A stretch of DNA of 64,000 nt from Candidatus Woesearchaeota archaeon (lineage in GTDB: Archaea > Nanobdellota > Nanobdellia > Woesearchaeales > UBA525), in NCBI GenBank assembly GCA_028818155.1, contig JAPPOH010000005.1, positions 29,943-93,942 of the forward strand. Direction: 5' to 3'. The position numbers and the translations under genes are program-made. Every line of letters starts with the position of its first letter. Positions within the stretch are counted from its first letter, which is position 1. Below the pieces are notes generated by a model. That model had not been told where the DNA came from and did no database searches. It worked only from the letters and a program-made list of their open reading frames with translations. Below are positions 1-16,692 of this stretch, piece after piece.

Positions 1-276
1 GAGCACGCGTGCGATGCTTGTTGCGTTCTCGAGCTCTTTTCGCTGTCTGAGGATGGCGTTAATTGCTCTGTATCTCTTGCTAAAATGCTTGACAAAATCT
101 TGCACCGTGTATTTTTTTGGTGCTTTCGTGTAGTTTTCAAGAATTTCTACTGTTCTTCGGGATTGTAGGAGAGCGAGGATTCGTTCTTTGTCGTTGAGTG
201 CTTCTGGCGGGACGAGAATATCTCGTTCAATGCACTTACTGACGAGTTGCTCTGTGGAGAGTTGTTCGTATGCCAT
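1..276 (-). CDS. partial CDS (5' part only, runs off left edge); N-terminal region resembling DNA polymerase II (PolD) small subunit DP1
   Basis: Manual reverse-strand translation from the ATG at 276..274 gives MAYEQLSTEQLVSKCIERDILVPPEALNDKERILALLQSRRTVEILENYTKAPKKYTVQDFVKHFSKRYRAINAILRQRKELENATSIARVL, open to position 1. It lies 30 nt downstream of orc1 on the same strand, the classic euryarchaeal oriC-orc1-polD arrangement. The DP1 assignment rests on recalled N-terminal motifs and is not verified. Confidence 0.4.
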   Translation of the reverse strand, partial: MAYEQLSTEQLVSKCIERDILVPPEALNDKERILALLQSRRTVEILENYTKAPKKYTVQDFVKHFSKRYRAINAILRQRKELENATSIARVL

Positions 277-305
277 TGCTTTTCCCTACTGATTGGTGTT
301 TCGGG

Positions 306-1598
306 CTAGTGGAACGCTTCGAGGCGTTCCTGTGCTGCTGCTTCGTTCGAAAAGACTGTGTTTGTCATGCCGAGTTCTGCTGCAACGATTTGTTTGACTT
401 TCGGGACGAGTCCTTCTGGCAGGCCGAGTGTGATCTCCCGCATTCTGCCGAATCGTCCCTTGCTAATAACTTTCGCGTTAATGATGCCGAGCATGTCCAT
501 CTCGGCGATTATATCTGAAATTCTTCGTTGTGTGAGTGTTCGCTGTCCTGTGTGTTGACAGACGCTCTTGTAGACTTCGAAGACATCGCCTGTGAAGACG
601 TTATCTCGCTTTTCGCATAAGAGTAACATTGCGTGAAGTGTTGCGTGAAATTGTTTTGGTTGTGTTTTGATAACATCGAGGATTCTGTCCCTGTCAATTT
701 TTTCTTCTGCGATGTCAATGTGTTGCACGGTGATGCGCTGGCTGCTCGCTCGCTCGGCGAGTTCACCTGCAACTCTCAGTAATTCCAGTGCTCTTCTTGC
801 GTCACCGTGTTCTCTCGCAGCGTATGCTGCGCATTTTGCGACGACGCCATCTGTTAGCGCAGTATTTTCGAATGCGTTCTGCGCTCTGTGTTCGAGAATT
901 TTTTGTAGTTGCGTTGCGTTGTATGGTGGAAACACAATCTCTTCTTCAGATAATGATGATTTCACTCTCGGGTCGAGCGTATTGCTGAAGATGAGATCGT
1001 TGCTAATACCGATAATACAGAGTTGTGCGTTCTTCAAATCTTGGTTGATCCTTGTGAGGTTGTAAATGATTTCATCGCCAACTTTTTTCACGAGTTGATC
1101 TATTTCATCAAGCACGAGGACGACGATTTGTCGCTGCTCGTCAACTGCGCGGAAGAAAATATTGTAGATTTCATCTGTTGGGAGTCCTGTGGAGGGGACT
1201 GCTTTCCCAAACATTCTTGCAAGCTCTGCGATGATCCTATACTCTGTGTCTGCGATTTTCTTTAATTTACAGTTTACATAGCATGTTTTGAGCGGGATAC
1301 CATTCTCTTCTGCTACTGATTCCATGCTTGTGAGGGTGTGCTTTACCGTCACTGTCTTACCAGAACCTGTTTTTCCGTAAATGAAGAGGTTGCTTGGGCG
1401 CTCTAAACGAAGCCCCGGAGCAAGGATTTTCGCGATGATGTTAATTTGTTCGTCTCTGTGCTGCAAGTCTGCTGGCATGTATGTGCTTTGTAGGACTGTT
1501 TTGTCTGTGAAAAGTGAGTCTGCTTTGATGTATTCTCTGAAAAATGTCGCTACTCCTTCTGTCATGCAATTCCCCCAACCCTCTACGGTCTGTTCCAA
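306..1598 (-). CDS. orc1: Orc1/Cdc6 replication initiator (AAA+ ATPase with C-terminal winged helix)
   Basis: The 430-aa ORF has Walker A GKTGSGKT and Walker B VLVLDEID, the sensor/ISN region and a C-terminal wHTH. The tool start is TTG at 1598; the first in-frame ATG is at 1565. Confidence 0.95.
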   Translation of the reverse strand: MEQTVEGWGNCMTEGVATFFREYIKADSLFTDKTVLQSTYMPADLQHRDEQINIIAKILAPGLRLERPSNLFIYGKTGSGKTVTVKHTLTSMESVAEENGIPLKTCYVNCKLKKIADTEYRIIAELARMFGKAVPSTGLPTDEIYNIFFRAVDEQRQIVVLVLDEIDQLVKKVGDEIIYNLTRINQDLKNAQLCIIGISNDLIFSNTLDPRVKSSLSEEEIVFPPYNATQLQKILEHRAQNAFENTALTDGVVAKCAAYAAREHGDARRALELLRVAGELAERASSQRITVQHIDIAEEKIDRDRILDVIKTQPKQFHATLHAMLLLCEKRDNVFTGDVFEVYKSVCQHTGQRTLTQRRISDIIAEMDMLGIINAKVISKGRFGRMREITLGLPEGLVPKVKQIVAAELGMTNTVFSNEAAAQERLEAFH

Positions 1599-1743
1599 GC
1601 GAAATGAAGGTCATTTATAAGTTCCATTGTACGCGAATGTGTATATTCGAGGATAGATGTTTCGAATTTCTGTGTTTGAGAAGCTACCCCTCCCCTTTGT
1701 TTCCTGTGGAAGTGTGTGCTTTCTGTCCCGTTCCTGTTTTTGT

Positions 1744-1767
1744 GTTCGAATCCCGGCGGGGGCATTT
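1744..1767 (+). other. tRNA 3'-end-like fragment (T-loop + T-stem 3' + acceptor 3' + discriminator) with no 5' partner; alternatively a G-string origin element
   Basis: TTCGAAT-CCCGG-CGGGGGC-A matches the canonical tRNA 3' end. The preceding bases TTTGTG cannot form the T-stem, and no GCCCCCG acceptor 5' strand lies upstream. Confidence 0.3.
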
Positions 1768-1799
1768 GCATTTTTTTGTGCTTTTTTTCCTTCCATATA

Positions 1800-1860
1800 T
1801 TATATTATAACTTTCTATATAGAAAAGAAAGAAGAAAGAAAGATGTGAGAGAAAAGAGAG
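1800..1860 (-). terminator. pyrimidine/T-rich tract (on minus strand) downstream of the giant-gene block; possible archaeal oligo-T terminator, also part of the origin AT-rich region
   Basis: The minus strand reads CTCTTTTCTCTCACATCTTTCTTTCTTCTTTCTTTTCTATAT immediately after the stop of the 575-aa gene. Confidence 0.3.
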
Positions 1861-1921
1861 GACGAGAAAACGCTTTGAAACATGTTGCAGAAGAAATGAG
1901 GGGGTGCGGATTCCAAAAGAA

Positions 1922-3649
1922 CTAACTCAACTCAGCGTGAAACACAATAGTTCCATTACAAACCCCAATATCGCTCACGTTCAGAGGAATCTGAACCTGC
2001 CAGTACGATGTGTTCATGGAAGGAGAGCCAAGCACCGTCTGCTTCGGTATAGAGAGGCGCAACTGCTGCAACGAACCAGACAACGCTTCCTTCTCAGAAT
2101 ACCCTGCAGTGATGTTCACAGCAAACCGCATGTGCTCAACAGAAACATTATCTGTCGCACACGAAAACGCATTGTTATCACCCAAACTACCACCATACCC
2201 GTACACAGTCACATTAATCTGCTGATTTCCAATATTTGAGACGTTCTGAGAAATATTCGCACTAATATCATTCCCTGAAAGATCGCCAAAGTTCATCAAC
2301 GTATCCGTCACATTCAACGCGTACAATGGATCAACGACAGCAGTATCAACAGCGGTTGCATTCAGCCCCTCCACATCATATGCAGTCACGTTACAGAGCC
2401 ACGTTCCATTCAGCGCAAAATATTGCACGTCAAATGTGCACGTGAAGTTCTTTTCATTACCAAAAGCAGCAACTTCCGAGCACGTACTGTTCGTATAGTG
2501 ATCATTTGCATCGTCTGGTGCACCAGGCGCAACACTATCGATGTGAAAAATCGAGCTCGCATTCACAATATTCGCCTCGCCATCAAGGTCAACAACAGAC
2601 GCGTTGCACTCGACAGTACGAACAGAACCAGCAGTTAAGACAATCGCACTCTCAACAGACACGTTCGGCTCAGGGTAATAGACCTCAAGTGTCAAGTTAA
2701 ACGTCAGAGAGGCACCTTCATTCCCTGATGTGTCTGTGCAGTTCACACTCCAATTATATGCGCCGTTTGACAACACAGTGGTGAAGTTTTGCACCACCCC
2801 CTTCGTCACAGAACTGCTCGTGAGGTTTACAGCTCCATTCAAGAGCAAGCTACAATTCCCAATGGAGGAAAAATCGGTCACGTTATACGTAAAGTTCACA
2901 AGATTACTCGTTTTGTTCAACGTGTTGTTTGCGGGCGCAACAAGCGTGACAACAGGCACCTCTTCATCAACAATCGTAATATTCTCTAACATATCCATAG
3001 TTTGCGCCTCAAGAATCGGACCTTCATTCTCACAAATACTGGTTGCAGTAATAGAAGAATACCCTAACACATACCCAAGCAGCGTGAAGTTCACAAGAAA
3101 ATTATCCCCACGAGTCAGCGTTGGAAACGCCCTCGTAAGGTTTCCTGCAGTTTCATTCAACACAGTGCCATTACCGAACGAAATCGAGACATTGCATGAG
3201 CCATCTGCGCCAAGCAGTGTCGCATTCACTGTTAAATTAAATTCCTGCGACCCATTGTAGCTCGTATTATCCAAAGGAGCAATAATACTAATGTTTAGCT
3301 CAGGATTCCTCGTCAGGTTAAGTGTGATGTTTATCTCAGTCGTGGAAGCGAGCGTTGCGTTCGTTAACCCATAGTGCGTCTCATTCCACGAGTACGCAGC
3401 CACAGCATCGCCGTCCGTCCCTGAAATCGTTGCGGAGTACGCACCACGGAATTGCGGCACAGGGGGAGCATTCACTGTCGTTTGAACAAACGTATTCTCG
3501 GTTGTGTCGTTCAGAAGGACAGGGAACCCATTCGCAACACCAGAGCCATTTGCATGGAAGACATATCCTTTGATATTGTGTGGTGTAGGAGGCGCAACGA
3601 CAGTCACACTCAAGAGAACAACCAAGAGAAAGAAGATCACCCGCTTCAT
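1922..3649 (-). CDS. secreted, heavily N-glycosylation-sequon-rich protein (575 aa) with signal peptide and transthyretin/CarboxypepD_reg-like N-terminal domain; last gene of the giant surface-protein block
   Basis: N-terminus MKRVIFFLLVVLLSVTVVAPP is a signal peptide. There are dozens of N-x-S/T sequons. Its start overlaps the upstream gene's stop (3646-3649). Confidence 0.8.
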   Translation of the reverse strand: MKRVIFFLLVVLLSVTVVAPPTPHNIKGYVFHANGSGVANGFPVLLNDTTENTFVQTTVNAPPVPQFRGAYSATISGTDGDAVAAYSWNETHYGLTNATLASTTEINITLNLTRNPELNISIIAPLDNTSYNGSQEFNLTVNATLLGADGSCNVSISFGNGTVLNETAGNLTRAFPTLTRGDNFLVNFTLLGYVLGYSSITATSICENEGPILEAQTMDMLENITIVDEEVPVVTLVAPANNTLNKTSNLVNFTYNVTDFSSIGNCSLLLNGAVNLTSSSVTKGVVQNFTTVLSNGAYNWSVNCTDTSGNEGASLTFNLTLEVYYPEPNVSVESAIVLTAGSVRTVECNASVVDLDGEANIVNASSIFHIDSVAPGAPDDANDHYTNSTCSEVAAFGNEKNFTCTFDVQYFALNGTWLCNVTAYDVEGLNATAVDTAVVDPLYALNVTDTLMNFGDLSGNDISANISQNVSNIGNQQINVTVYGYGGSLGDNNAFSCATDNVSVEHMRFAVNITAGYSEKEALSGSLQQLRLSIPKQTVLGSPSMNTSYWQVQIPLNVSDIGVCNGTIVFHAELS

Positions 3650-5874
3650 TGTATCCTCCTCCGCACGAACCGGACAGCCAGCGCAATAGTAATTATCAGC
3701 ACAAGCACCAATTCTATCGTTGTAGCCGTTCCTTCACCACCAACTACTTGCCCAGTAATCCCGAGCAAACCCCCTTTCACATGGAGTTCCACAGTCACAA
3801 GCGAGCTGTCAGCGACAAACTCAGTTGCACCAGAACGAAGCAAACCAGGAACAGCAACGGAGAATGCGTGCCCTTTCACATCATGCACGACAAACTCAAA
3901 TACATCACGTAAAGCCCCGCGCCCCGTTCTCGTCCGATACTGCTCACCAGTCTCAAGATCGGTGAGCACAATCGGCAAGTTTGCTCGCCCTCCAATTACC
4001 TTTCCTATGATCGTTACAGGTTCGGGCACAGCAATCACCGTCGGCTCTTGTGCTTTCGGCAGCGCATCTGCAGCAATAGCAAACAACCCAAGACCTCTGA
4101 CTGAAGAAACGAGTGTCGTTCCTTCAAGAGCAGTTCGTTGTACACGCCATTTTCCATCGTATCTGTACAAGGCAACATCTTCAATTGTAATATCGTGCTC
4201 CGCAAGCCACGACTGAGGCACACGGAAGGTGACCTCTGCCTTCTCAAGCCCTTCTATCGTACCATCTAACAACAAATGAAAGTACCCGTACACAAGCTGC
4301 TCCATCGGTTCATCAACGTCCACACGCGCCAAACGGATATCATCAGGAATAGTGTTTGCTCGCACAAAGAGCGCCTGAATGAACTCATTGAAACGGTATG
4401 TTCGCTCAAAGAGTCGTTCTTCTTCTGGCGGCAGAAACTCCTCAAAGTACTCGAGAATGCCACCACCGCCACCACTTTGTACAAATTTCTTGAATGAAAC
4501 AAGCTCAGCGGCAACAGTTTGCGTGACATTCACCGTACCATCACTCACAGCAACAATGAATGAAAATTCTTGTAGCACTGCAGGCTGATAGCGTATGAAC
4601 CCCGTCTCAGAAATGGTGAGTCCTGCTGGTCCGCTCACGAGAGCCATAGTAAGAGCATCCCCATCAGGATCTACAGGCAAGAATTGATAGAGGGCTACCT
4701 GCTCTAGGACAGGCATCTCAACACGAACGGGGACGATAGGCGGATCATTTACATTCTGCACGTGCAGCGCGTACTGTTGAGTCGCTACGAGAACACCATC
4801 GGAGACATTCACTGTGATGTTGTGCACACCCACAGCACCATTTTCAGGCACCCAAACAACAGTATCGCCAACCACATGCATGCCCGTTGGCCCAGAAACA
4901 GAAACAGTCAACGGATCGTCATCATAATCGATGGCAGCGATCGTGTACGCATACTCCACATCTTCTGTCGCGTTCACAGGAGGGGTGCTCAGAATAATAG
5001 GCATATCTGGTATGTTCTGCACCGTAAGCAAGAATGTTTGCGATGTTTCCAGCACACCATCACTCAAAGTCACATTCACTACATGCTCTCCAACATCATA
5101 TGGTCCGGGCGTCCATGATAGGAGTGAGTCAACAAGCGTCATGTTTGTAGGACCAGTGAATGAGATAGAGATTGGATCACCATCCAGATCCTCAGCCACA
5201 AGCGAATACGTCCATTCCACGTCCTGATCAACTGTCGTAGTAGGGATTGAGAGGAAGGTTGGCGCGTCATTCACATTCTGTACAGTGATCGTGAACGATT
5301 GTGTTGTCGATAAATTCCCATCCGTCGCTATATACGTAACAGCATGTGTCCCAACTTGGTGTGCAGTTGGCCGCCAAGCAATAACCCCCGTCGTCATATT
5401 AACAGTCATGCCTGTAGGACCAGCAAGCAACCCATGCTGTATGGGCTGTCCGTTCCATTCGTACGTGTCCACATAATATGCGTACTGCTGATCTTGCACG
5501 GCGTCTACATTCGGCGTGGAAAGAATCACAGGAGGCAAATCAGGCAACGTCATATTCAAGAAAAGATCAACATCATGATGAATACCTGTGAGAACAACAT
5601 CTCTTGAGCTACTATGCACGGGATTCGATGCAGTAATCCTGACAGTATGCCCATTATTCCACGATAACGCAACAGAATATCTCCCAGGACCACGATCCGC
5701 ATACACAGCAAGCACAGCACTCGTATTGAGATCTTCAAACACCACAGTCACGGCACGTGGCACAGGAGTAATCCCGTCCAAAGCATAGATATGACCATCA
5801 ATACCACGAGGAGGCTCTACTGCAGCCACGGACGTCAGCGCGAGCAACGCTACCAAAAGAACGAGCCGTTTCAT
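3646..5874 (-). CDS. cell-surface protein (742 aa): signal peptide, CarboxypepD_reg-like domain, three cadherin-like repeats with VNDAP/VNDPP motifs, C-terminal TM anchor with basic tail
   Basis: Signal peptide MKRLVLLVALLALTSVAAV. Repeats QNVNDAPTF...DLDGDPISISF, QNIPDMPII...DYDDDPLTVSV and QNVNDPPIV...DPDGDALTM. C-terminus TTIELVLVLIITIALAVRFVRRRIQ. Start and stop overlap with both neighbours. Confidence 0.85.
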   Translation of the reverse strand: MKRLVLLVALLALTSVAAVEPPRGIDGHIYALDGITPVPRAVTVVFEDLNTSAVLAVYADRGPGRYSVALSWNNGHTVRITASNPVHSSSRDVVLTGIHHDVDLFLNMTLPDLPPVILSTPNVDAVQDQQYAYYVDTYEWNGQPIQHGLLAGPTGMTVNMTTGVIAWRPTAHQVGTHAVTYIATDGNLSTTQSFTITVQNVNDAPTFLSIPTTTVDQDVEWTYSLVAEDLDGDPISISFTGPTNMTLVDSLLSWTPGPYDVGEHVVNVTLSDGVLETSQTFLLTVQNIPDMPIILSTPPVNATEDVEYAYTIAAIDYDDDPLTVSVSGPTGMHVVGDTVVWVPENGAVGVHNITVNVSDGVLVATQQYALHVQNVNDPPIVPVRVEMPVLEQVALYQFLPVDPDGDALTMALVSGPAGLTISETGFIRYQPAVLQEFSFIVAVSDGTVNVTQTVAAELVSFKKFVQSGGGGGILEYFEEFLPPEEERLFERTYRFNEFIQALFVRANTIPDDIRLARVDVDEPMEQLVYGYFHLLLDGTIEGLEKAEVTFRVPQSWLAEHDITIEDVALYRYDGKWRVQRTALEGTTLVSSVRGLGLFAIAADALPKAQEPTVIAVPEPVTIIGKVIGGRANLPIVLTDLETGEQYRTRTGRGALRDVFEFVVHDVKGHAFSVAVPGLLRSGATEFVADSSLVTVELHVKGGLLGITGQVVGGEGTATTIELVLVLIITIALAVRFVRRRIQ

Positions 5875-8800
5875 GTGAGCGGATCTGCTGTCCAGTTCAC
5901 CTCCTTCGTCGTGTCAAACACATATCCTCTCGTTGGATCAAGCGTCGTGAAATCAGGATTGTTCGCTGAAGGGAACCAACCCCATGGCACACCACCAATA
6001 TTGAAGTGAATCGTGACCTCAAACACATTCGTGTCTGAGTTAAAGCGGTCAATCGCCTGAATAGTATTATTTTCTGAAAGTACAAGCAGTGGCGGATCTG
6101 AATTCGTTGGAAGCGTCTGGTTCAGAACAGTGTGCCAGCTCATGAAGTTCAGACCACTCACTAAGCCAACACGTGTTGTTGTAACAGGCACAACACCAAA
6201 GAACGTATTATTGCATGTTGTGTTCGACTCAAACCAGTAGCTTGCAGTCATGTTCAGACTCGTGAAACCTTCCGATCCAGACGCCGGCGTGAAAACAGAC
6301 CCATTCCAATCTGTTCGCTCATAATCGGTGCTATTATAGCGCCATAGCGAAATCGCACATGCAGGCTCCGTCGAGAATGAGAAGCCGATATTCGTTGTAT
6401 TCTGGAGATCGAACCGTTCAGGAATGAGTGGGAAACTCACGAGACTCAAGTTCAAAGGAAGAACGGTCGTGTACTTCCCTCCTGCTTGCGTTCGCAGCGC
6501 AGTTACAGTGCTTCTAGCAGACTCCACCCAGTAGTACATCTGATCTGAAGACGTGGTGTGCGTATAATTCGTATCTGTAATGCCCGTCACGTTTGGCGTG
6601 CTAGGCCTGTCGCTGTAGTTCGACTGAATATACAGATTGTATGAATCAGCACCTAGAACAGCGCTCCAGTTTATCACAACATCTGTACTATTCCCGTACG
6701 TCGTGAGATTCACAGGAGATATCAAGTGGAAGAACTCGAAGAGTTCAGACGCGCCACTATTCCCCGCTTCATCAACACATGCGACGCTCCAATTCGCTAC
6801 ACCTTCTGTTGCAAGGGAAACATTCCGTATCGTCTCATTCCCTTCTGTGATGTTGATGCTTGTCTCATTCACAACACCATTGATCGTCAACGAACAGTTG
6901 AGGAAGTTCGCAAGGTTATCAGTCACTGTCCAGTTGAAGAGTACGGGACTCGAGGCGTTTGTGTCATTGCCTGGCGCATTGAGCGTTATTACTGGCACTG
7001 ACGCATCCACCCGAACAGTGTAGTTGAAGCTTGCAAAGGCAACATTGCTGAACGTGTCATTACACTCGATGTTCCAGAGAACATGACCGCTTGTAAATGA
7101 CGTATTAATTGTGTTATTTGCCTGATGTACAGGCGAACTATCACTCACATTTGCTGTCCAGCCGGATTCGTTGTGATACAAAGTGCAGGAATCGATGTTA
7201 ATATCATCAACGTAGTACGTAAACACAACAGCACTCCCGTTCCATGAATTATTTAGTGGGAGCTCTAGTGTTATATTCGGTGCAATCGTGTCAGGAACGA
7301 GTTCAAAGAATGTCGAGCCATTCCCATTATCAAGACCATCTCGCTCGCCAAGCGTTACTACGGAGTAATTTCCAAGCGGTTGCTGGAATGTCGCGTACGA
7401 AGTGATGGCTTCACCGAAAATATTCGTTTCATTCTCTGTTACTTGCTTCAAAATGTGTGTTGCCCCCGTTGCTGCTGTTGGCTCGTTCGACATATACATC
7501 CGAACACGAACATCATCTGTGTAGAACTCATTTCCACCGAAAATCTGGAATCGATCGAGAACAACAGAGTCGAATCCAGTATCAGTTCCACTGACGCTCG
7601 TGATGTACTCTCCTGTGTTATTGTACGCCGAGAAATTCATAAACGATGCGTTCTTCGTCATTACCCAAATATACCATGTGTTCGGTGCAAGCTGCACGCT
7701 ACTACCTGTAAGAACAGTATTCCCAACATAGCTGTTTCGATCTTCAATAATGTGCCCGGACGCAGTATCGAAGTCATCAAACCGAGGTCCATATCCATCT
7801 CCGTTCCCATCAACAATTCCATACCTGTTCGATGCTCCACCATTCTCATTAATCCTATTCGTTCTGAATCGTAGCTCATAATCGACAAGTGACTCTCGAA
7901 GCAACTTATATCCTCCGCCAGGGTCGCTGTTGAATGCCTTCCATGCAACATAATTGCCTCCTCCTTCATCGACAACCGCGATTCCTGTTGTCGTATGGTT
8001 CACCCATCCCTGTAGATCACCAGTTTGCATATCATCAAAGAGCATGAAAACATTGCTCGTGTTTTCTGGTGGATCTCCAGGAGTCATGTTCCCATAGTAG
8101 AGGAAGTAATGATCATCAAATTCACCTGCAGGAATGTCTTGTTGGAGAGTAAACCACAGTTCAGTATCGCTTGTGTTGAACGGACTTGCATTGTAACGGT
8201 CAATCTCTACTAGCGTAGCATTCGTGTCGTGATAATAGACAATACGTATATCAGATCCATTCGCAAGCATCAGAGGGTCACTCGTATTGACGGAGAGTTG
8301 AATGCTGTAGTTCTGCTCCACAATATGATCCGCATCGGTGTTCGTGATGTTAATGAGTTGTCTATGTGTATAGCTTTCATTCCACCAAGGAATGTCAGTG
8401 ACACTTGTGTTTGTATAGATGATGGCGGTTGTCGCGTTCGCTTGAATGGAATTGGCAAAGAGGTCTTTCGTAGAAATATTGATTTGCGCAACCTCTCCCT
8501 GCTCGTACGTAGAAGCTGTTGCTATTGTGACATTCAAATACGTGGTATCAAACACATTAAAACTGTGAAGAGCACTCGTCCCATTGTTTGATGTGTCATA
8601 GCATATAACTTGCCACGTGTAGTTTCCATCTTCCATTGAGAGTGCGAATGTTTCCGTTGTGTTCACTGTGATTGTCGTATCCGTCTGGTTCACAGTACCA
8701 TTAATCAGCAAGTCACAGCTAACAATCGCGCTCGTATCCGTCACGTTGTAGCTAAATACAACGCCAGAGGTACCCACAGTCGTGTCGTTCTGCGGAGATA

Positions 8801-11800
8801 TTAGGGATACAATAGGAGCGTTCGTGTCATTCACAATAATGTACCATGTTGTAATGCCTGCAGTATAGTTTTGTGTTTCATTGTAGATCGCACTAACATT
8901 GTACGTTCCAGGAACGGGGAATTGTGAAATGTTTTCAATAGGTGCACTGCCATTGTTGATTCGAGCACCGTTCACGTATAGTTCAAGCAGCCCACTCCCA
9001 GGATTAATGAGTCGCGCACTTATATTGGCAAACTGTCCTTCGTCTATCGTAAGATTTGCCTCGGAATCATTCAGGGTGAGGTTGACAAGTGCTTGTGACT
9101 GGACAACAACATATGTGTATTGTAATGTTTCATTCTCATTCCCAACACTATCATTCACGTACCACTTGTATACATACGTTCCAACAGCAAGGTCTGTGTA
9201 GTTGTATACGAAGATGCTCGCTCCCTGGTCTGTCGAGGAGTAATTCGCTAGCGTTCCTGTGAAGTTGTGTTCAATCAGGACAGTTTCTGGGAATGTATCA
9301 ACCACAGTGATATTGAACTGGTACTGCTGTCCTTGTACATACGTCGCCGGAGATGCAGGTGCTGTTGTATTATCTGTTGTGGATGGTATCGTTGTGTCAA
9401 TGTTTACTGTGTAGTTGAACTGCGCAAAGCTACTCCGATCCGCTAAGTCGTAACACAAAACATTCCAAAGATACGGTCCATCATCATACGTTATTGTAAA
9501 GTTGTTTGGAATGTTGTTATTTGGCGATGGATCAGACTCATTCACTGACCACCCAGTTGCATTGTGATACAACGTACAGTTTGCAAGGTTCACGTCATTG
9601 GGTGTGTAATTGAGCAACACTGATGAAGCAGTGCTGAAGGAATCATTCAATAGTGTGTTGAGTGTGACCACAGGATCCGTCAGATCGACGGTGAAGTTTC
9701 GCAACGAGGATGTGCCGAGCGCAAATGTGACGTTATCATAACATTGGACGCTCCAATTGTGTTTTGCTTCGGCGAAATCCGCAATGGTGAAGATATTATC
9801 TGCATTATTCGTGACTGTTGTGTTTGTCTGGTTAAGAATCCCATCAACAATGATGGAACAATTCTCAATTCCAGATGCGTCATTCACAGTATAGTTGAAT
9901 GTGATGTTGTTTGTATCAACGAAATCCTCCTCTACAGGATAGTTGAGCTGCACAATAGGGGGGTCAGTCTCATTGTCAACTTGCACAGTGATGTTATATT
10001 CGACAGAGACATTCGTGAACGCATTGGTGTCAGAACACTGAATGGACCAATTGTGTTCCCCATTCGCTACAAAACGCGTGATGTTCTGGGATGTTCCTTC
10101 AGTAATAGTTGTATCTGCTGCACCACTCTGTGTGCCATCAATGAGGACACTACAATTTGCAATATCTGTAGCCGCATCTGTTGTATTGAAGAAGAAGACA
10201 ATATTGTTCGTTGTTGTTTCGAGCGTGTTGTTCGCGGGACCTTCAAGATTTACAAGAGGGGGCGTTGTATCTATCCTCATCGTGAAGTTGTTTGTCGAGA
10301 ACCCACCATTCCCTTCTAAGTCGACACAGTAGACGTTCCAGAGTACATGTTCATCAGGCAACGCGACGGTGAAGTTGTTTGGAATCGCATTTGTTACCGT
10401 TGCATTTGTTTCATTTGCTGCCCAGCCAGACACATTATGGTAGAGCGTACAATTCGCAATAGCATCAAAGTCGGTCGGCGTGTAATTGAAGAAGACATCA
10501 CTTGTCAACACCCACGAATCGTTTGTTGGAAGATTCAATCCAACGACTGGAGGGGTTGTGTCAATGATTTGGAGTGTTTCATTTGTGTCATTTGTATTTC
10601 CTGCGTGATCTATTGCATATGCGAGCAGTGTCCAGTTCCCTTTCACAGAAAGATTTGTTGTTGTGAGTGTTTCATTGCTTGTGTACTGTGCAAAGAACGT
10701 CCCATTTGGATATGAGACATTCAAGTACGAAGTATTCAAGTACAAATCAGTCGCGATCCACCCAACGAACACACTCTCCACACCAAGCTCAGCAGGATTT
10801 GGTGTCGCGTTCGTAATATTCACGAACGGCGCGGTACCATCAACAATGAACTGTGAAGAATTTCTCGCGCTGAAGATACTGAACATCGTACTGACATTCA
10901 AGTCATATGGCCCGTCTATGAGTGGTGCACTAAACGTGTAATTGTATGATGCATTTCCATCCGTCCTCGTCGGCCGAAGCTCCTCAGTTAACTGTGCGAC
11001 AGTTGGGGCCCAGCTCACCCTGACTAATGGTAAAATTCCCTCACTTTCAATTGCCATGTACATGCCAGGCTCTGCAGTGTGTCCTCGTTCTCCATCTGAC
11101 TCATCCTCTTCTTCAGTGTGGAAACCAACAGTTGTTGTGTCAAGGAAACAAGTAGGCATCCATCCACCATCACCACCATCTCTCCTTGGGAAATCACCAA
11201 CAAGCACCGGTATTTGTGAGTAGACTTGCGCGAGTGCTGCTTCAAAGCACCCATCCCCATCATCAACACCTGTAATAATATCAGCGAACGAGGTTCCTTC
11301 ATACGGAACCCCCTCTATAGTTCCAGTTCCTGTCTCGCCAACAATAAAGCCATAGTCTTCAGGTTCGTGACCCTCAGAAGCAGGACATGCGCCTCCTTGG
11401 TCACAATATTGTCCCATTTCAAGCGCTATCTGCACACTCGAAGTGCCAACATTGTTGAAGTGGTTGTCTACCCAGAGCGAATCCTTGTAGGACATGATCT
11501 GCCCTGCAAGCACAGGCGTCGCACCAAACGTGTGATTGTAGTTGATCGTGCTGTACGTGGTTGGTGTGCTCGTACCAGAGCCAATCACTTGGGTTTCGTC
11601 ACGGATCAAGTGACCTTCGAAATCAAGTGTTCCGTCTCGTGTAACGAACTGCCCTTCTTCCATGATAAAAATCGAGATATTTCTGTTCGCAAAAGCGTTG
11701 CCACCAGGGTTCTGAAGACGTATCTGGAAACTCGTTGCACTGACATTCGTCATTCTAATGGATACTTCTTCTGGTGGCACAGCTGCCTCTTCTATCTGTC

Positions 11801-14800
11801 CGACAACAACAGGAGAGAGGTATGTGGTATTCATTGTCACCGTTTGCCATGATGCACCAACATCTTCAAGATGCATCACTTCAAGTGGAGAGTACACATA
11901 CGATGCAACCTCTAACACCACACCAGGATCGGGGTTATCATAGTAGATGAAGTAATCTGTTGACGATGAGTCCGCAGCAATAGCTACCTGTGTTTTGAAC
12001 AGAACTTCTGTTGCTGTATCATTGAAAGGAGTTGCATTAATTCTGTGTAGTTCAACATTTGCGCTTCCATTCCAATAAACGATTCTGAAATCACTCCCAT
12101 TTGCGAGCATGCGATTCTGACTGACAAGTGTTTCAGTATCAACTGTATAATTGATCGTCGTGCCGGCGAGGAGTGCGAGTGTTGCGTTCGTGTTCGTGAT
12201 ATTCAACGCTCGTCGATACTTCCAATCAACATCCCACCAATCTGGCGTTATATTCCGCTCAATCAAGTGTATTTCTGACGCGTTCTCAGGATTTAATCGA
12301 CTTCCGTTGAGTGTGACATTCAACTCATTATAGGTCACATTCGTCCCATCATTAAGTGTCACATTACCAGTCACTGAAAGATTTTCTCCAGGCATAACAT
12401 ATGTTTTTGAGAGAAGTTCAGCAACAAAGAGCGTTCTGTTATCAGCGATAAACGTGTAGTTAACACTCGCATACTCGGTAACATTAAGTTGATCACCAGC
12501 AGCACAAGTCCATTTGTACGTGCCAACAGGCACTGCGACACTGAAATTGGCATCAACATTCTTTCCTGTCACATTTACCGTCTGATTTCGTGTCCACGAT
12601 CCGGAGACGTTATGATAGAGCGAAACATTCTGTATGCCATAGTCATCACTAATAGTACAGTTGAATGTGACGGTAAGATCACTCAGCACAGCGCCGTCCA
12701 CTGGAGCGACAAGCGAAATGCTCATTGGCGCATTTACTGCTGTGAATGTGTAGTTATTCGTGGCAAAAGCACCAAGATTCTCTTCATCATAGCACAGGAC
12801 GTTCCACACATAGTCCCCAGGTGTGAGAAGCGTTTCAAACGTGTGATTACTTCCTTGTGTCACGTTATACAATGTTTGATTTGATGACCAGTTCCCTGTG
12901 AAATTGCTGTACAATGAACAATTCGTCATGTTACTTGGTACGTAGTTATCTGTGACGTTAAACGTGATGTTTGGCATGAGATCTGTGCTGCTAGCATTCA
13001 ATGGAGCGACAAGTGTTACTGTTGGGGGGGTAAGATCCACAGTAGTGAAGTTATGCGTGCCTGTTGTGTTGCAATTTCCAGCAGCGTCACAACTTGTCAC
13101 GTTGAAATAGTAGAGTGTTTTTACAACTAAACCTGTAATTGTGACATTGTGCTGCACCACGAAACCAGTTTCGTGCGTAAAGATACCAAGATTTATTGTC
13201 GTATTGTGTTCCACGGACGAGTTCGCAGTTTCACTCGTGTTCCAAAGAATATCTGCTTCTGTCTCGCCAGGGAACGCGATGACATCCGTCACGTTCGGTG
13301 GTGTTACGTCAGGCGTGCTTGTTGTTGTGAAATTATGAGGTCCTGTTGTGTTGCAATTCCCTGCTTCATCACAACTTGTCACGTTATAGAAGTAGAGCGT
13401 TGCCGTTGCGAGATTACTGATTGCCACACTATGACTCGTGACAAGTGTGACGTCATGCGAGAAATTTCCTAGCGATTCATTCTCTCCATATTGTACTGTT
13501 GAATTCGAATTCTCATCTGTATCCCAGACGATAACTGCGGTGTTTGCAGTAATACTTGTGGCATTTTCACCTGAGATGTTCGGTGCAGCAGTATCCACAC
13601 GTAATGTGAAATTATTCTCTGCAAAGATTGAAACGCCAAACGAATCAGTACACTCGACATTCCAAATGAAATTCCCATCAGGTGGTGTGAGTGTGATGTT
13701 CTCTTCTGTATCATTCTGTGCGATAATCGTTGTGTTTGCAACCCACGACCCTGTGAAATTCGCATAGAGTGTACACTGCATCGTCTCGTCTTCTACATCA
13801 ACATACGTGAAGTTGAAGTCAATCGGCGTCTGGTTTGTAATCGTATCATTCACTGGCACGTTGAGTGTAACATTTTGCTCTTCATTGATCGCGTCAAGCG
13901 CTTGTATGTACCACCACGTCCTATTTCCAACGTTTTCGAGAAATGCGCTTGCAGATGATGTTCTCGTTATGCGAATTTCTAGATCACTATTTGCTGAGAG
14001 GTTGACGATACAACTTGCGAAGTTCGCTCCTTCGTAGCTGTCAGTGTTCGTTCCTTGATCTCCCCGGTTGTATCCTTGTGACCAGCAGAAGTCACTATCT
14101 GCTCCATTCACACGAAGGTTTCCTACATGTTCGAGACGAGTAGTAGCGCCTGTATCTCCAGAATCTCTGAGACTGTAAACGTTATATGCGATGCGATAGT
14201 ACCCTGCGCGCAGCACCCGAATTGTGTTGGAATCTGTTTTGTTGAAGAAGCTATCGTTCCGCTGCACAGTATCGAAGTCAAGATCAATGCCTGATGTTGT
14301 ATCAAGATCTTGTCCACCAACCTCATCTATAACCATAATGACGTTTGCATCATCATCAGGTATTTTCTCAATATGGAACCATGAGCGATTTGCAGTTGTC
14401 GCGAGGGTTGCAATACTTGCTTCTGCAGCACGCCCTGCTTGGATTTGCACATAGGCATTCTCTCCCAGTTCAACAAGCGCATCTGCTGTCACGACACCGT
14501 CGCGTGTGCTGTCAAAGCCTCGTAGATTCGTTTGCGAGTAGCCAACAGGAATTCGTGAGCCATTCACGAGAATTTCAGCAAAGGTTGCTGCACGAGTATC
14601 TGTCCCTTGTTCTGCAGCCACACCATATGTAATCCTATACAGGCCAGATTCGAGTATACTCACGTTGTTCGCATCAGTTGTAAAGTTAAAGGCACTGTCT
14701 TCCCGATCTTCAGTGTCCCACGTAAGATTTGTCCCAGCAACGACATTCATCGTCTGTCCGCCAGCTTCGTCATGCGCCATGAAGACATTTGTGATGTTTA

Positions 14801-16481: not shown

Positions 16482-16599
16482 TTTCCACCTTCTCTTCGTT
16501 GAACTGCTGCATCATCAGCTCAACTTTCGACGATACTTTCATCGCGTTCTCTTTGCAGAGGCGCTTGAACATGACGAATACTTCTTCGTCAATCGTCAT
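16468..16599 (-). CDS. small ORF (43 aa) with ribbon-helix-helix/CopG-like pattern, overlapping the start of the 3536-aa gene by 14 nt
   Basis: Manual translation gives MTIDEEVFVMFKRLCKENAMKVSSKVELMMQQFNEEKVENEKK, a beta-strand followed by two helices. Two TTTATAAA TATA-like boxes at 16655-16675 and the palindrome CCATATAAGTATGG at 16627-16640 lie upstream. It is absent from the ORF track because it is under 60 aa. Confidence 0.45.
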   Translation of the reverse strand: MTIDEEVFVMFKRLCKENAMKVSSKVELMMQQFNEEKVENEKK

Positions 16600-16654
16600 C
16601 GTTATTTTTCGTTTGCCCACTCGGAATCCCTATAAACCATATAAGTATGGTTCT

Positions 16655-16675
16655 TAGAGGGTGATTTATAAAGAG
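16655..16675 (-). promoter_or_regulatory. two TATA-box-like elements (TTTATAAA x2) in the 211-bp gap between the 2785-aa and 3536-aa genes; likely internal promoter for RHH-ORF + 3536/742/575-aa genes
   Basis: TTTATAAA at 16655-16662 and 16668-16675, 55-75 nt upstream of the small ORF start codon on the minus strand. Confidence 0.4.
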
Positions 16676-16692
16676 AATTTATAAATCTTCGC

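What the first reader, a model, noticed from the sequence alone, without database searches (positions are those of the whole stretch)
1..1900. Replication-origin neighbourhood: polD-small fragment, orc1, ORB-like elements, then the giant-gene block starts
On the minus strand the order is [ORB-like repeats + AT-rich tract]-orc1-putative DP1, the canonical euryarchaeal oriC arrangement. Minus strand 1712..1686, TTCCACAGGAAACAAAGGGGAGGGG, closely matches the ORB consensus (dyad TTCCA..GGAAAC + G-string). 1593-1611, TTCCAAGCGAAATGAAGG, matches mini-ORBs. Degenerate copies follow. The surface-protein block therefore lies directly at the origin. If forks leave rightwards from ~1800, all 39 kb of giant genes are transcribed head-on to replication.
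Basis: partly seen in the sequence, partly recalled or inferred. Interest (0 to 1): 0.6.

Follow-up and report, generated by a model that had tools for sequence, protein, structure and literature searches.

The report
Woesearchaeal replication origin beside orc1
This is very probably the chromosome replication origin of an uncultivated DPANN (Woesearchaeota) archaeon, built like the well-studied Sulfolobus and Pyrococcus origins, and it also carries a conserved palindrome at its centre that has no described counterpart.

Summary
Window 306-1565(-) encodes Orc1/Cdc6. Window 1-276(-) is the N-terminus of PolD small subunit DP1. The source scaffold continues orc1-DP1-DP2.

The 356-bp spacer 1566-1921 holds exactly three origin recognition boxes (ORBs). 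They are the three best matches in the 64 kb to an ORB matrix built from 31 related loci: 1687-1711(-), 1885-1909(+) and 1593-1617(+).

The first two are inverted, with their dyads facing a 173-bp A+T-rich region and their G-strings pointing outward. This is the same polarity as ORB3/ORB2 of Sulfolobus islandicus oriC1. The third lies between the orc1 TATA box and the start codon, so it probably mediates autorepression.

It also missed a palindrome, TTTCTATATAGAAA (1812-1825), that sits at a sharp pyrimidine-to-purine strand switch. About 20 related origins share it, and it may be a lineage-specific counterpart of the Sulfolobus ucm element.

The surface-gene block (1922-41267, all minus) ends 13 nt from the origin, and this placement is conserved in the closest relatives. 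It would be head-on to a rightward fork.

Origin firing itself cannot be tested here, and local skew is uninformative. This is a new member of a known kind, of moderate interest.

The parts
1..276 (-). N-terminal 92 codons of the PolD small subunit (DP1). The gene runs off the window.
   Evidence: On the source scaffold the full gene encodes 462 aa with PF04042 DNA_pol_E_B and Metallophos. NCBIfam NF003118 gives E=3.4e-5. tblastn finds homologues directly downstream of orc1 in about 30 loci.
306..1565 (-). orc1/cdc6 initiator gene, 419 aa, starting at the ATG at 1565
   Evidence: Pfam Cdc6_C, Cdc6_lid and AAA. TIGR02928 at 1.6e-124. Matches Sulfolobus Orc1-1 (2QBY_A) at 5e-102, with the winged-helix (wH) helix, the wing and the initiator-specific motif (ISM) conserved. 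Identical to the public protein P0001.
1572..1576 (-). GGGGG Shine-Dalgarno-like element 6 nt upstream of the orc1 ATG
   Evidence: Read directly from the sequence. G-rich leaders occupy the same place in relatives. The function is inferred.
1593..1617 (+). Promoter-proximal mini-ORB (TTCCAAGCGAAATGAAGG), inverted relative to ORB 1687-1711. Probable Orc1 autoregulatory operator.
   Evidence: PWM score 16.0 bits, third best in the window. The CCTnnnTTTCnnnTGGAA columns are invariant in alignment A1 of 8 close loci. It lies between the TATA box and the ATG.
1613..1621 (-). orc1 TATA box (CTTATAAAT on the minus strand)
   Evidence: Conserved as CTTAAATA/CTTATAA in A1, with T311, T312, A313 and A315 invariant. 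The archaeal TATA assignment rests on general knowledge.
1687..1711 (-). Full ORB (TTCCACAGGAAACAAAGGGGAGGGG), orc1-proximal boundary of the unwinding region
   Evidence: 36.6 bits, top hit of the window. 15 of 21 positions identical to the S. islandicus oriC1 ORB. Dyad and G-string columns are invariant in A1.
1712..1884 (.). 173-bp inter-ORB region, the presumed duplex-unwinding and MCM-loading zone. The A+T-rich core is 1770-1839.
   Evidence: A+T is 0.77-0.87 in 30-nt windows across the core. The purine fraction on the + strand is 0.2-0.37 to the left and 0.8-0.93 to the right of about 1818.
1812..1825 (.). Central palindrome TTTCTATATAGAAA. The family consensus is TTATTTTCWATATWGAAAATAA. 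It sits at the pyrimidine-to-purine switch point.
   Evidence: TTCWATATWGAA occurs exactly once in 64 kb. 13 of 15 exact copies in 32 loci lie between the inverted ORBs. Half-site consensus comes from 19 loci. The flank asymmetry averages about 0.3 versus 0.7 over those origin copies.
1885..1909 (+). Distal ORB (TTGCAGAAGAAATGAGGGGGTGCGG), inverted partner of 1687-1711.
   Evidence: 21.1 bits, second best in the window. It matches TTSCANNNGAAANNNNGGGG against 0 expected. A '-' oriented far ORB is present in nearly every relative with enough upstream sequence.
1922..41267 (-). Block of five surface-protein genes (575, 742, 3536, 2785 and 5406 aa), all transcribed towards the origin
   Evidence: ORF lists. 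Ig-like, He_PIG and cadherin-like domains. Homologues of the 575-aa and 742-aa proteins and of the C-terminus of the 3536-aa protein hold the same position in L004 and L005. The 575-aa protein also does so in L001, L002 and L006.

Best explanation
Window 1566-1921 is the Orc1-dependent chromosomal replication origin (oriC) of a Woesearchaeota (DPANN) archaeon. It lies upstream of an orc1-DP1-DP2 replication operon.

Shown by computation:
- Two full ORBs in inverted orientation (1687-1711 minus, 1885-1909 plus) bracket a 173-bp A+T-rich region.
- Their TTCCA..GAAA dyads face inward and their G-strings face outward.
- A third, shorter ORB (1593-1617 plus) sits between the orc1 TATA box and the start codon.

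Inferred from homology to Sulfolobus Orc1-1 and Aeropyrum ORC1 and from the Sulfolobus oriC1 model:
1. An ATP-bound Orc1 monomer binds each full ORB with fixed polarity. The winged helix sits on the dyad and the AAA+ ISM sits towards the G-string.
2. The two oppositely oriented Orc1 molecules recruit two MCM hexamers onto the DNA between them.
3. Melting starts in the 80-87% A+T core around 1818, and forks leave in both directions.
4. The leftward fork runs co-directionally through orc1-DP1-DP2.
5. The rightward fork meets the 39-kb surface-gene block head-on.
6. Orc1 bound at the promoter-proximal mini-ORB represses its own transcription.

The region has a sharp switch from a pyrimidine-rich to a purine-rich top strand, centred on the palindrome at 1812-1825. 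As a result the leading-strand template, which is the strand MCM tracks 3'-5', is T/pyrimidine-rich on both sides. This last point is an inference.
For: - Orc1 identity: (5e-102 to the DNA-bound Orc1-1 structure 2QBY_A, 3.5e-93 to 2V1U).
- Operon orc1-DP1-DP2 on the source scaffold.
- ORB statistics.
- Conservation of the architecture in 31 related loci: 70 ORB hits at or above 13 bits within 900 nt upstream of orc1 (22.9 kb) against 9 in 322 kb elsewhere. The far ORB is on the opposite strand to orc1 and the main near ORB (at or above 20 bits) on the orc1 strand in nearly every locus with enough upstream sequence.
- Alignment A1 shows the ORB, palindrome, TATA and mini-ORB columns invariant among otherwise diverged spacers, at 40% mean column identity.
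- Polarity and sequence equal the experimentally mapped S. islandicus oriC1. I rebuilt that sequence from the primer table of PMC12141716. Window ORBs are 13-15 of 21 identical to its ORBs, while its two ORBs are 14 of 21 identical to each other.
- The oriC-cdc6-DP1(-DP2) linkage is established in Thermococcales, Halobacteriales and Methanosarcinales (PMC2643942).
- ORC1/Cdc6 is a single-copy core gene across Nanobdellota (bioRxiv 10.64898/2026.05.13.725050).
- Aeropyrum Orc1 prefers T-rich ssDNA (PMC8287685).
Against: - There is no functional evidence of any kind: no marker frequency, no binding assay.
- Local nucleotide skew is uninformative. Four-fold-site skew differs between the giant genes and the housekeeping genes regardless of strand or side.
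- The distal ORB has TTGC instead of the 'perfectly conserved' TTCC core (PMC1904270). Its 21.1 bits barely exceeds the best single shuffle, 20.3.
- Some archaea keep orc1-linked origins that are dormant (H. mediterranei, PMC4595724 abstract). From my own knowledge, the Thermococcus kodakarensis origin is dispensable.
Confidence: 0.85

Rival explanations
1. The ORBs are only Orc1 operator sites that regulate orc1 transcription, or they mark a dormant origin. The chromosome is replicated from elsewhere or by recombination-dependent initiation.
For: One ORB (1593-1617) overlaps the orc1 promoter region. No firing data exist. Dormant orc-linked origins are documented in haloarchaea (PMC4595724).
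Against: An operator role does not require a second, inverted full ORB 320 nt upstream across an A+T-rich tract. It also does not explain why that arrangement is conserved over variable spacing (97-626 bp) in about 25 loci. Orc1 is single-copy in the phylum. The polarity matches a proven origin.
Confidence: 0.1
2. The central palindrome and its flanking pyrimidine and purine tracts are ordinary transcription signals and not an origin element. They would be a terminator for the incoming surface-gene operon, a symmetric TATA element, or a recombinase (dif-like) core site.
For: - Oligo-T/pyrimidine runs follow the stop codon of the 575-aa gene.
- Copies of the palindrome also occur just after DP2 in L008 and in a divergent intergenic spacer in L010.
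- The 16-mer is common in unrelated metagenomic DNA: 115 of 120 sampled contigs lack orc1.
- The geometry, with arms flanking a 6-bp centre, resembles tyrosine-recombinase sites.
Against: - The same asymmetry and palindrome are present when the upstream neighbour is divergently transcribed (L010, L013-L021, L031). A terminator role therefore cannot explain it.
- The centre CWATATWG differs from the TTTAAATA-type TATA boxes seen at orc1 in the same loci.
- The element is always between the inverted ORBs: 13 of 15 exact copies.
- It is not unique per genome, as a dif site would be.
Confidence: 0.2
3. The ORB-like strings are chance matches in a G/A-rich spacer.
For: None beyond the short length of the motifs.
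Against: (see above).
Confidence: 0.01

Closest known systems
Sulfolobus/Saccharolobus oriC1 (ORB3-DUE-ORB2 plus ORB1, initiator Orc1-1)
   Same: - It is adjacent to the initiator gene.
- It has three ORBs, two of them inverted around an A+T-rich region, with dyads proximal and G-strings distal.
- The ORB register is the same (TTCCA N3 GAAA N4 GGGG), with 13-15 of 21 positions identical.
- The initiator is 5e-102 to Orc1-1, with the wH and ISM residues conserved.
- A short conserved motif lies midway in the unwinding region.
   Different: - The inter-ORB distance is 173 bp here against 94 bp.
- The Sulfolobus ucm (ATTATACAAAC) is absent. A dyad-symmetric 14-22-bp palindrome takes its place.
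- The pyrimidine/purine switch is much stronger: flank purine fractions 0.15/0.67 in this window and about 0.3/0.7 on average in relatives, against 0.47/0.60 in Sulfolobus.
- The genome probably has one initiator and one origin, not three.
- PolD genes follow orc1.
Pyrococcus abyssi/furiosus oriC-cdc6-dp1-dp2 replication island
   Same: The gene order is the same: origin, cdc6/orc1, DP1, DP2 (PMC2643942). Long ORBs and short mini-ORBs are mixed, with the TTCC/GAA core (PMC1904270).
   Different: - There is no second ORB cluster inside dp1. Only three PWM hits occur in the 21-kb L032.
- There are three boxes and not many mini-ORBs.
- The G-string spacing is of the Sulfolobus/Aeropyrum type and not the 34-bp Pyrococcus ORB.
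- A 58-aa hydrophobic ORF lies between DP1 and DP2.
ucm/UBP accessory system of Sulfolobales/Desulfurococcales origins (PMC12141716)
   Same: It is a short conserved motif lying between the two inverted ORBs inside the unwinding region. It also has a few extra copies in intergenic DNA elsewhere.
   Different: - The sequence is unrelated, and palindromic where the ucm is asymmetric.
- No binding protein is known.
- UBP is reported to be restricted to Sulfolobales/Desulfurococcales.
- Function here is untested.

Membership tests
ORB-type archaeal oriC (Orc1-1/oriC1 type) | Located next to an orc1/cdc6 gene | tested here: met
   orc1 is at 306-1565(-), and the ORBs lie 28-344 nt upstream.
ORB-type archaeal oriC (Orc1-1/oriC1 type) | Two or more ORBs matching the TTCC..GAA core plus a G-string, beyond chance | tested here: met
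   They are the top three PWM hits of 128 kb scanned. The pattern occurs 2 times against 0.00 expected. The distal ORB has TTGC, one core mismatch.
ORB-type archaeal oriC (Orc1-1/oriC1 type) | ORBs in inverted orientation flanking an A+T-rich unwinding element, with the polarity of a mapped origin | tested here: met
   1687-1711(-) and 1885-1909(+) flank 173 bp with an 80-87% A+T core. The polarity is the same as in S. islandicus oriC1.
ORB-type archaeal oriC (Orc1-1/oriC1 type) | Architecture conserved at orthologous loci | tested here: met
   31 genome loci plus 4 independent metagenome loci (L049, L065, L080, L123).
ORB-type archaeal oriC (Orc1-1/oriC1 type) | Nucleotide-skew inflection at the site | tested here: inconclusive
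   Only 74 kb is available. The sign change at ~2000 is explained by the aberrant codon usage of the giant genes. Four-fold-site skew shows no strand or side effect.
ORB-type archaeal oriC (Orc1-1/oriC1 type) | Initiator binding and replication initiation demonstrated (footprint, ChIP, marker frequency, 2D gel) | not testable with these tools
   This needs experiments or read-depth data from sample SAMN13943220.
Orc1/Cdc6 initiator | AAA+ module with an ISM, a lid, and a C-terminal winged helix with a basic wing | tested here: met
   Pfam AAA_22/AAA, Cdc6_lid and Cdc6_C. TIGR02928 scores 415 bits against a cutoff of 181. The alignment to 2QBY_A shows TGL (ISM), TQRR...MDMLGI (helix) and KGRFGRMREI (wing).
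PolD small subunit DP1 | DNA_pol_E_B/calcineurin-like phosphoesterase core, encoded beside DP2 | tested here: met
   The full gene on scaffold L032 is 462 aa with PF04042 and Metallophos. It is followed by DP2, 1137 aa, with the PolC_DP2 domains. The window holds only the first 92 aa.
ucm/UBP origin accessory element | Presence of the ucm consensus (ATTATACAAAC) in the unwinding region | tested here: not met
   No match with up to 2 mismatches inside 1566-1921.
ucm/UBP origin accessory element | UBP homologue encoded in the genome | not tested
   The whole genome is not available. The paper reports UBP only in Sulfolobales/Desulfurococcales.

The most novel reading that the evidence does not exclude
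The dyad-symmetric element at the exact centre of the unwinding region is a previously undescribed, lineage-specific origin component of Woesearchaeales-type archaea. In the window it is TTTCTATATAGAAA, and the family consensus is TTATTTTCWATATWGAAAATAA. It would be the binding site of an unidentified dimeric accessory factor that sits between the two MCM hexamers, as a functional analogue of the Sulfolobus ucm/UBP pair. It would also mark the point from which both leading strands are laid down on pyrimidine-rich templates.
Probability: 0.35. Interest if true: 0.65.

Novelty: new member of a known kind. Interest (0 to 1): 0.42.

Why it matters
Origins of DPANN archaea have so far been assumed, not described. 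A 2026 survey of 208 complete Nanobdellota genomes simply rotated them to orc1.

This locus and its 31 relatives give a concrete, conserved anatomy: ORB, pyrimidine tract, palindrome, purine tract, ORB, TATA, mini-ORB, orc1-DP1-DP2. That anatomy can serve three purposes.
- It can anchor genome coordinates.
- It can guide growth-rate (peak-to-trough) estimates from metagenomes.
- It can guide design of in-vitro Orc1/MCM loading assays for organisms that cannot be cultured alone.

The central palindrome bears directly on a question posed by the Bell laboratory in 2025, namely whether lineages outside Sulfolobales have their own origin accessory factors.

The conserved placement of about 39 kb of giant surface-protein genes head-on against the origin is an unusual arrangement. 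It could matter for how these host-interaction genes evolve or are expressed.

Tried and rejected
1. Local GC skew as an origin test. The profile flips sign near 2000. However, four-fold-site skew shows that the giant genes have G>C (+0.12 to +0.48), while housekeeping genes on either strand and either side have C>G. The flip is therefore codon usage and not replication.
2. Structured RNA or tRNA in the spacer. ARAGORN and Rfam found nothing at gathering thresholds, and only noise at E up to 10.
3. Sulfolobus ucm motif. It is absent from the origin.
4. Reverse test of the palindrome in metagenomes. The exact 16-mer is frequent in unrelated A+T-rich DNA, and only 5 of 120 sampled contigs carry a Woesearchaeal orc1. 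It is therefore not diagnostic on its own, although 4 of those 5 have ORBs within 160 nt of it.
5. Literature search for the palindrome sequence. It returned only unrelated primers.
6. Reading the palindrome as a promoter or terminator. I rejected this because it persists whatever the orientation of the neighbouring gene, and it differs from the local TATA consensus.
7. Reading it as a dif site. This is unlikely because it is not unique per genome and always lies between ORBs.
8. An ORB cluster inside dp1, as in Thermococcales. None was found.
9. The small ORFs flanking DP2 as candidate DNA binders. Both are hydrophobic membrane-like peptides.
10. The Samson 2016 Mol Cell paper on Orc1 polarity could not be fetched. 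I derived the polarity from primer sequences instead.
Full report
**What is in the sequence**

The first 1.9 kb of the window contain, all on the minus strand:
- A 92-codon gene start at 1-276.
- A 419-codon ORF at 306-1565.
- A 356-bp non-coding spacer at 1566-1921.
- The stop codon of a 575-aa ORF, the last of five consecutive minus-strand ORFs. They encode 575, 742, 3536, 2785 and 5406 aa and run to 41267.

The 419-aa protein is an Orc1/Cdc6 initiator.
- It matches Pfam Cdc6_C, Cdc6_lid and AAA.
- It matches TIGR02928 at E=1.6e-124.
- It matches the DNA-bound crystal structures of Sulfolobus Orc1-1 (2QBY_A, 5e-102) and Aeropyrum ORC1 (2V1U, 3.5e-93). The ISM 'TGL', the recognition helix 'TQRRISDII..MDMLGI' and the wing 'KGRFGRMREI' are conserved.

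**Source and the DP1 claim**

The identical Orc1 protein is on record from a 'Candidatus Woesearchaeota archaeon' MAG. The encoding 214,583-bp scaffold could be read for 10 kb on either side (locus L032). L032 positions 1-11565 are the exact reverse complement of window 1-11565.

On that scaffold orc1 is followed by four ORFs:
- A 462-aa protein with the DNA_pol_E_B and metallophosphatase domains. This is the PolD small subunit DP1, and its first 92 codons are window 1-276.
- A 58-aa hydrophobic ORF.
- The 1137-aa PolD large subunit DP2.
- A 103-aa hydrophobic ORF.

The fragment alone gives only a weak NCBIfam hit, at 3.4e-5. However, its homologues lie immediately after orc1 in about 30 related loci. 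The order oriC-orc1-DP1-DP2 is the arrangement known from Pyrococcus, and the cdc6-DP1 linkage is widespread in Euryarchaeota (PMC2643942). Here it occurs in a DPANN archaeon.

**The ORBs are real**

I collected 31 loci encoding Orc1 relatives (54-74% identity) from Woesearchaeota, Pacearchaeota and Nanoarchaeota genomes. Several of these records are titled 'Methanosarcinales', which looks like a mislabel.

I seeded with the window's ORB and extracted 45 ORB instances from their orc1-upstream regions. I built a position matrix from those instances only and scanned both strands of the 64-kb window.
- The three best hits are 1687-1711(-) at 36.6 bits, 1885-1909(+) at 21.1 bits and 1593-1617(+) at 16.0 bits.
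- The fourth hit scores 9.4.
- Block-shuffled sequence gives a maximum of 10.7 ± 2.8, with 20.3 the highest in 200 shuffles.
- A literature-style pattern, TTSCANNNGAAANNNNGGGG, occurs twice in the window against 0.00 expected. Both copies are here, and they are inverted relative to each other.
- No other site in 1500-2000 exceeds 2 bits.

Its 'degenerate copies' reduce to one real additional box, which it did not locate. The seeding biases the matrix towards the 1687-1711 site but not towards the other two.

**Conserved architecture**

Across the 32 loci, ORB hits at or above 13 bits number 70 in the 22.9 kb lying within 900 nt upstream of orc1. Only 9 occur in the remaining 322 kb.

In nearly every locus with enough upstream sequence, the orc1-proximal full ORB is in the orc1 sense. 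A distal full ORB is on the opposite strand, 97-626 bp away.

An alignment of the eight closest spacers has 40% mean column identity. Even so, it has invariant columns at five elements: the distal pyrimidine tract, a central CTATAT, the proximal ORB (TTCCA.A.G.AA....GGGG.G), a TATA element (TTA.A) and an inverted short ORB (CCT...TT.C...TGGA) just before the ATG.

In window coordinates the order of elements is as follows.

| Element | Coordinates |
|---|---|
| orc1 ATG | 1565 |
| GGGGG leader | 1572-1576 |
| mini-ORB | 1593-1617 (+) |
| TATA | 1613-1621 |
| ORB | 1687-1711 (-) |
| pyrimidine-rich tract | follows the ORB |
| palindrome | 1812-1825 |
| purine-rich tract | follows the palindrome |
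| ORB | 1885-1909 (+) |
| stop of the 575-aa gene | 1922 |

**Comparison with a proven origin**

S. islandicus oriC1 has been dissected by linker scanning and marker-frequency analysis. ORB2 and ORB3 are inverted around the unwinding element, and both are essential (PMC12141716).

I rebuilt its sequence from the mutagenesis primer table. It reads ACCCCTTCGGTTCCATTGGAG, then 94 nt, then TCTCCAAATGAAATACTGGGGT. Both dyads therefore face the unwinding element and both G-strings point away.

The window's pair 1687-1711 / 1885-1909 has exactly this polarity. Its boxes are 13-15 of 21 identical to the Sulfolobus boxes, which are 14 of 21 identical to each other.

Together with the close similarity of the initiators, this supports the same mechanism. 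One Orc1 monomer binds per ORB with fixed polarity. Two MCM hexamers are recruited to the intervening DNA (the model in PMC12141716). Melting occurs in the A+T-rich core, which is 1770-1839 at 77-87% A+T. These mechanistic steps are inferred by homology and are not shown for this organism.

**The third box**

Site 1593-1617 lies between the conserved TATA element and the start codon. It covers the position where an archaeal transcript would start, about 25 nt downstream of the TATA box (general knowledge). Orc1 bound there should block pre-initiation complex assembly, which would give negative autoregulation. This is an inference. The position and sequence are conserved in the close relatives.

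Midway between the inverted ORBs lies TTTCTATATAGAAA (1812-1825).
- The 12-mer TTCWATATWGAA occurs once in the 64-kb window.
- In the 32 loci it occurs 15 times, and 13 of these lie between the inverted ORBs. One-base variants in six more loci bring the total to about 20 origins.
- Folding the two halves of 19 instances gives the half-site ATWGAAAATAA, which corresponds to a 22-bp dyad TTATTTTCWATATWGAAAATAA. Cytosine is almost absent from the outward-reading strand for 24 nt.
- The 60 nt to the left are pyrimidine-rich and the 60 nt to the right are purine-rich. The purine fractions average about 0.3 and 0.7 over those origin copies, and are 0.15 and 0.67 in the window.
- This holds whether the upstream neighbour is co-oriented, as here, or divergent, as in L010, L013-L021 and L031. 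It is therefore not merely a terminator or promoter feature.
- The Sulfolobus unwinding element shows only a faint version of this asymmetry, 0.47 versus 0.60.

The consequence is that the leading-strand template is T/pyrimidine-rich on both sides of the centre. This fits the reported preference of Aeropyrum Orc1 for T-rich single strands (PMC8287685). I offer this as an inference.

Positionally the palindrome corresponds to the Sulfolobus ucm. That is an 11-bp motif midway between ORB2 and ORB3. It is essential for firing and is bound by UBP, a protein confined to Sulfolobales and Desulfurococcales. The ucm sequence itself is absent here. A few palindrome copies lie outside origins: after DP2 in L008, and in a divergent spacer in L010. 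This is reminiscent of the additional genomic UBP sites.

A reverse scan of metagenomes showed that the bare 16-mer is too common in unrelated A+T-rich DNA to be diagnostic. It did add four further orc1-linked examples with ORBs within 160 nt. I found no description of this element or of any DPANN origin anatomy in the searchable literature.

**The surface-gene block**

The 575-aa gene ends 13 nt from the distal ORB. All five genes up to 41267 are transcribed towards the origin.

The arrangement is not an assembly accident.
- Homologues of the 575-aa and 742-aa proteins and of the C-terminus of the 3536-aa protein occupy the same position and orientation in L004 and L005.
- The 575-aa homologue does so in L001, L002 and L006, at 39-50% identity.
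- More distant relatives have a divergently transcribed gene there instead.

**Skew**

The window's GC skew changes sign near 2000. Four-fold-degenerate-site analysis of 74 kb explains this.
- The giant genes have an unusual G>C third-position bias.
- Housekeeping genes have C>G on either strand and on either side of the putative origin.
- There is no measurable strand-of-replication effect.

It needs whole genomes.

**Verdict**

This is an ORB-type origin next to an orc1-polD operon. It is a new member of a well-known kind, in a phylum where origin anatomy has not been described.

The parts that go beyond the expected are the conserved central palindrome with its sharp pyrimidine/purine switch, and the conserved head-on abutment of giant surface-protein genes. 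Whether the origin fires, whether the palindrome binds a factor, and whether replication-transcription conflict occurs are all untested.

Noticed in passing
window 1744-1764 (+): GTTCGAATCCCGGCGGGGGCA looks like the 3' end of a tRNA: T-loop, 3' T-stem, 3' acceptor and discriminator. There is no 5' partner. It is unique in the window, absent from the relatives, and not called by ARAGORN or Rfam. It could be a relic att site or tRNA remnant inside the origin, or chance.
   Followed up: partly
window 1611-1796 (-) = L032 9770-9955: The public gene call on the source scaffold places a 61-aa ORF across the proximal ORB and half of the unwinding region. It has no Pfam hit, and it overlaps conserved non-coding motifs in a spacer that is otherwise poorly conserved. 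It is probably a spurious annotation.
   Followed up: partly
window 1922-41267 versus the rest: The five giant surface-protein genes have a G>C bias at four-fold sites (+0.12 to +0.48). Replication and housekeeping genes in the same 74 kb have C>G (about -0.1 to -0.4). The block therefore has a distinct codon or mutational regime.
   Followed up: partly
window 1-64000: No tRNA gene and no Rfam family at gathering threshold were found in 64 kb.
   Followed up: yes
L014, L018, L019, L020, L021, L031 at about -5.2 to -5.6 kb from orc1: A conserved extra full ORB (20-27 bits) lies about 5 kb upstream of the origin in one Nanoarchaeota/Woesearchaeota clade, far outside the origin spacer.
   Followed up: no
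L008 7194-7205; L010 1045-1056; L058 ~13926: Copies of the origin palindrome occur outside origins. One is directly after the DP2 stop codon. One is in a 90-bp divergent spacer between an endonuclease-like gene and a metallo-beta-lactamase-fold gene. One is 8.7 kb from orc1.
   Followed up: partly
L032 12675-12851 and 16258-16569: Two small, strongly hydrophobic ORFs (58 and 103 aa) are embedded in the orc1-DP1-DP2 operon, overlapping their neighbours by 4 nt. Whether they are conserved was not checked.
   Followed up: no
L001, L002, L004, L010, L014, L017, L019, L031 (record titles); P0019: Several records carrying this Woesearchaeota-type orc1 locus are titled 'uncultured Methanosarcinales archaeon'. 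One Orc1 homologue is filed under a Bacteroidetes bin. These are likely taxonomic mislabels or bin contamination.
   Followed up: no
L012 1-100: A (TAC)n microsatellite of at least 30 units lies at the contig end, immediately upstream of that locus's origin region.
   Followed up: no
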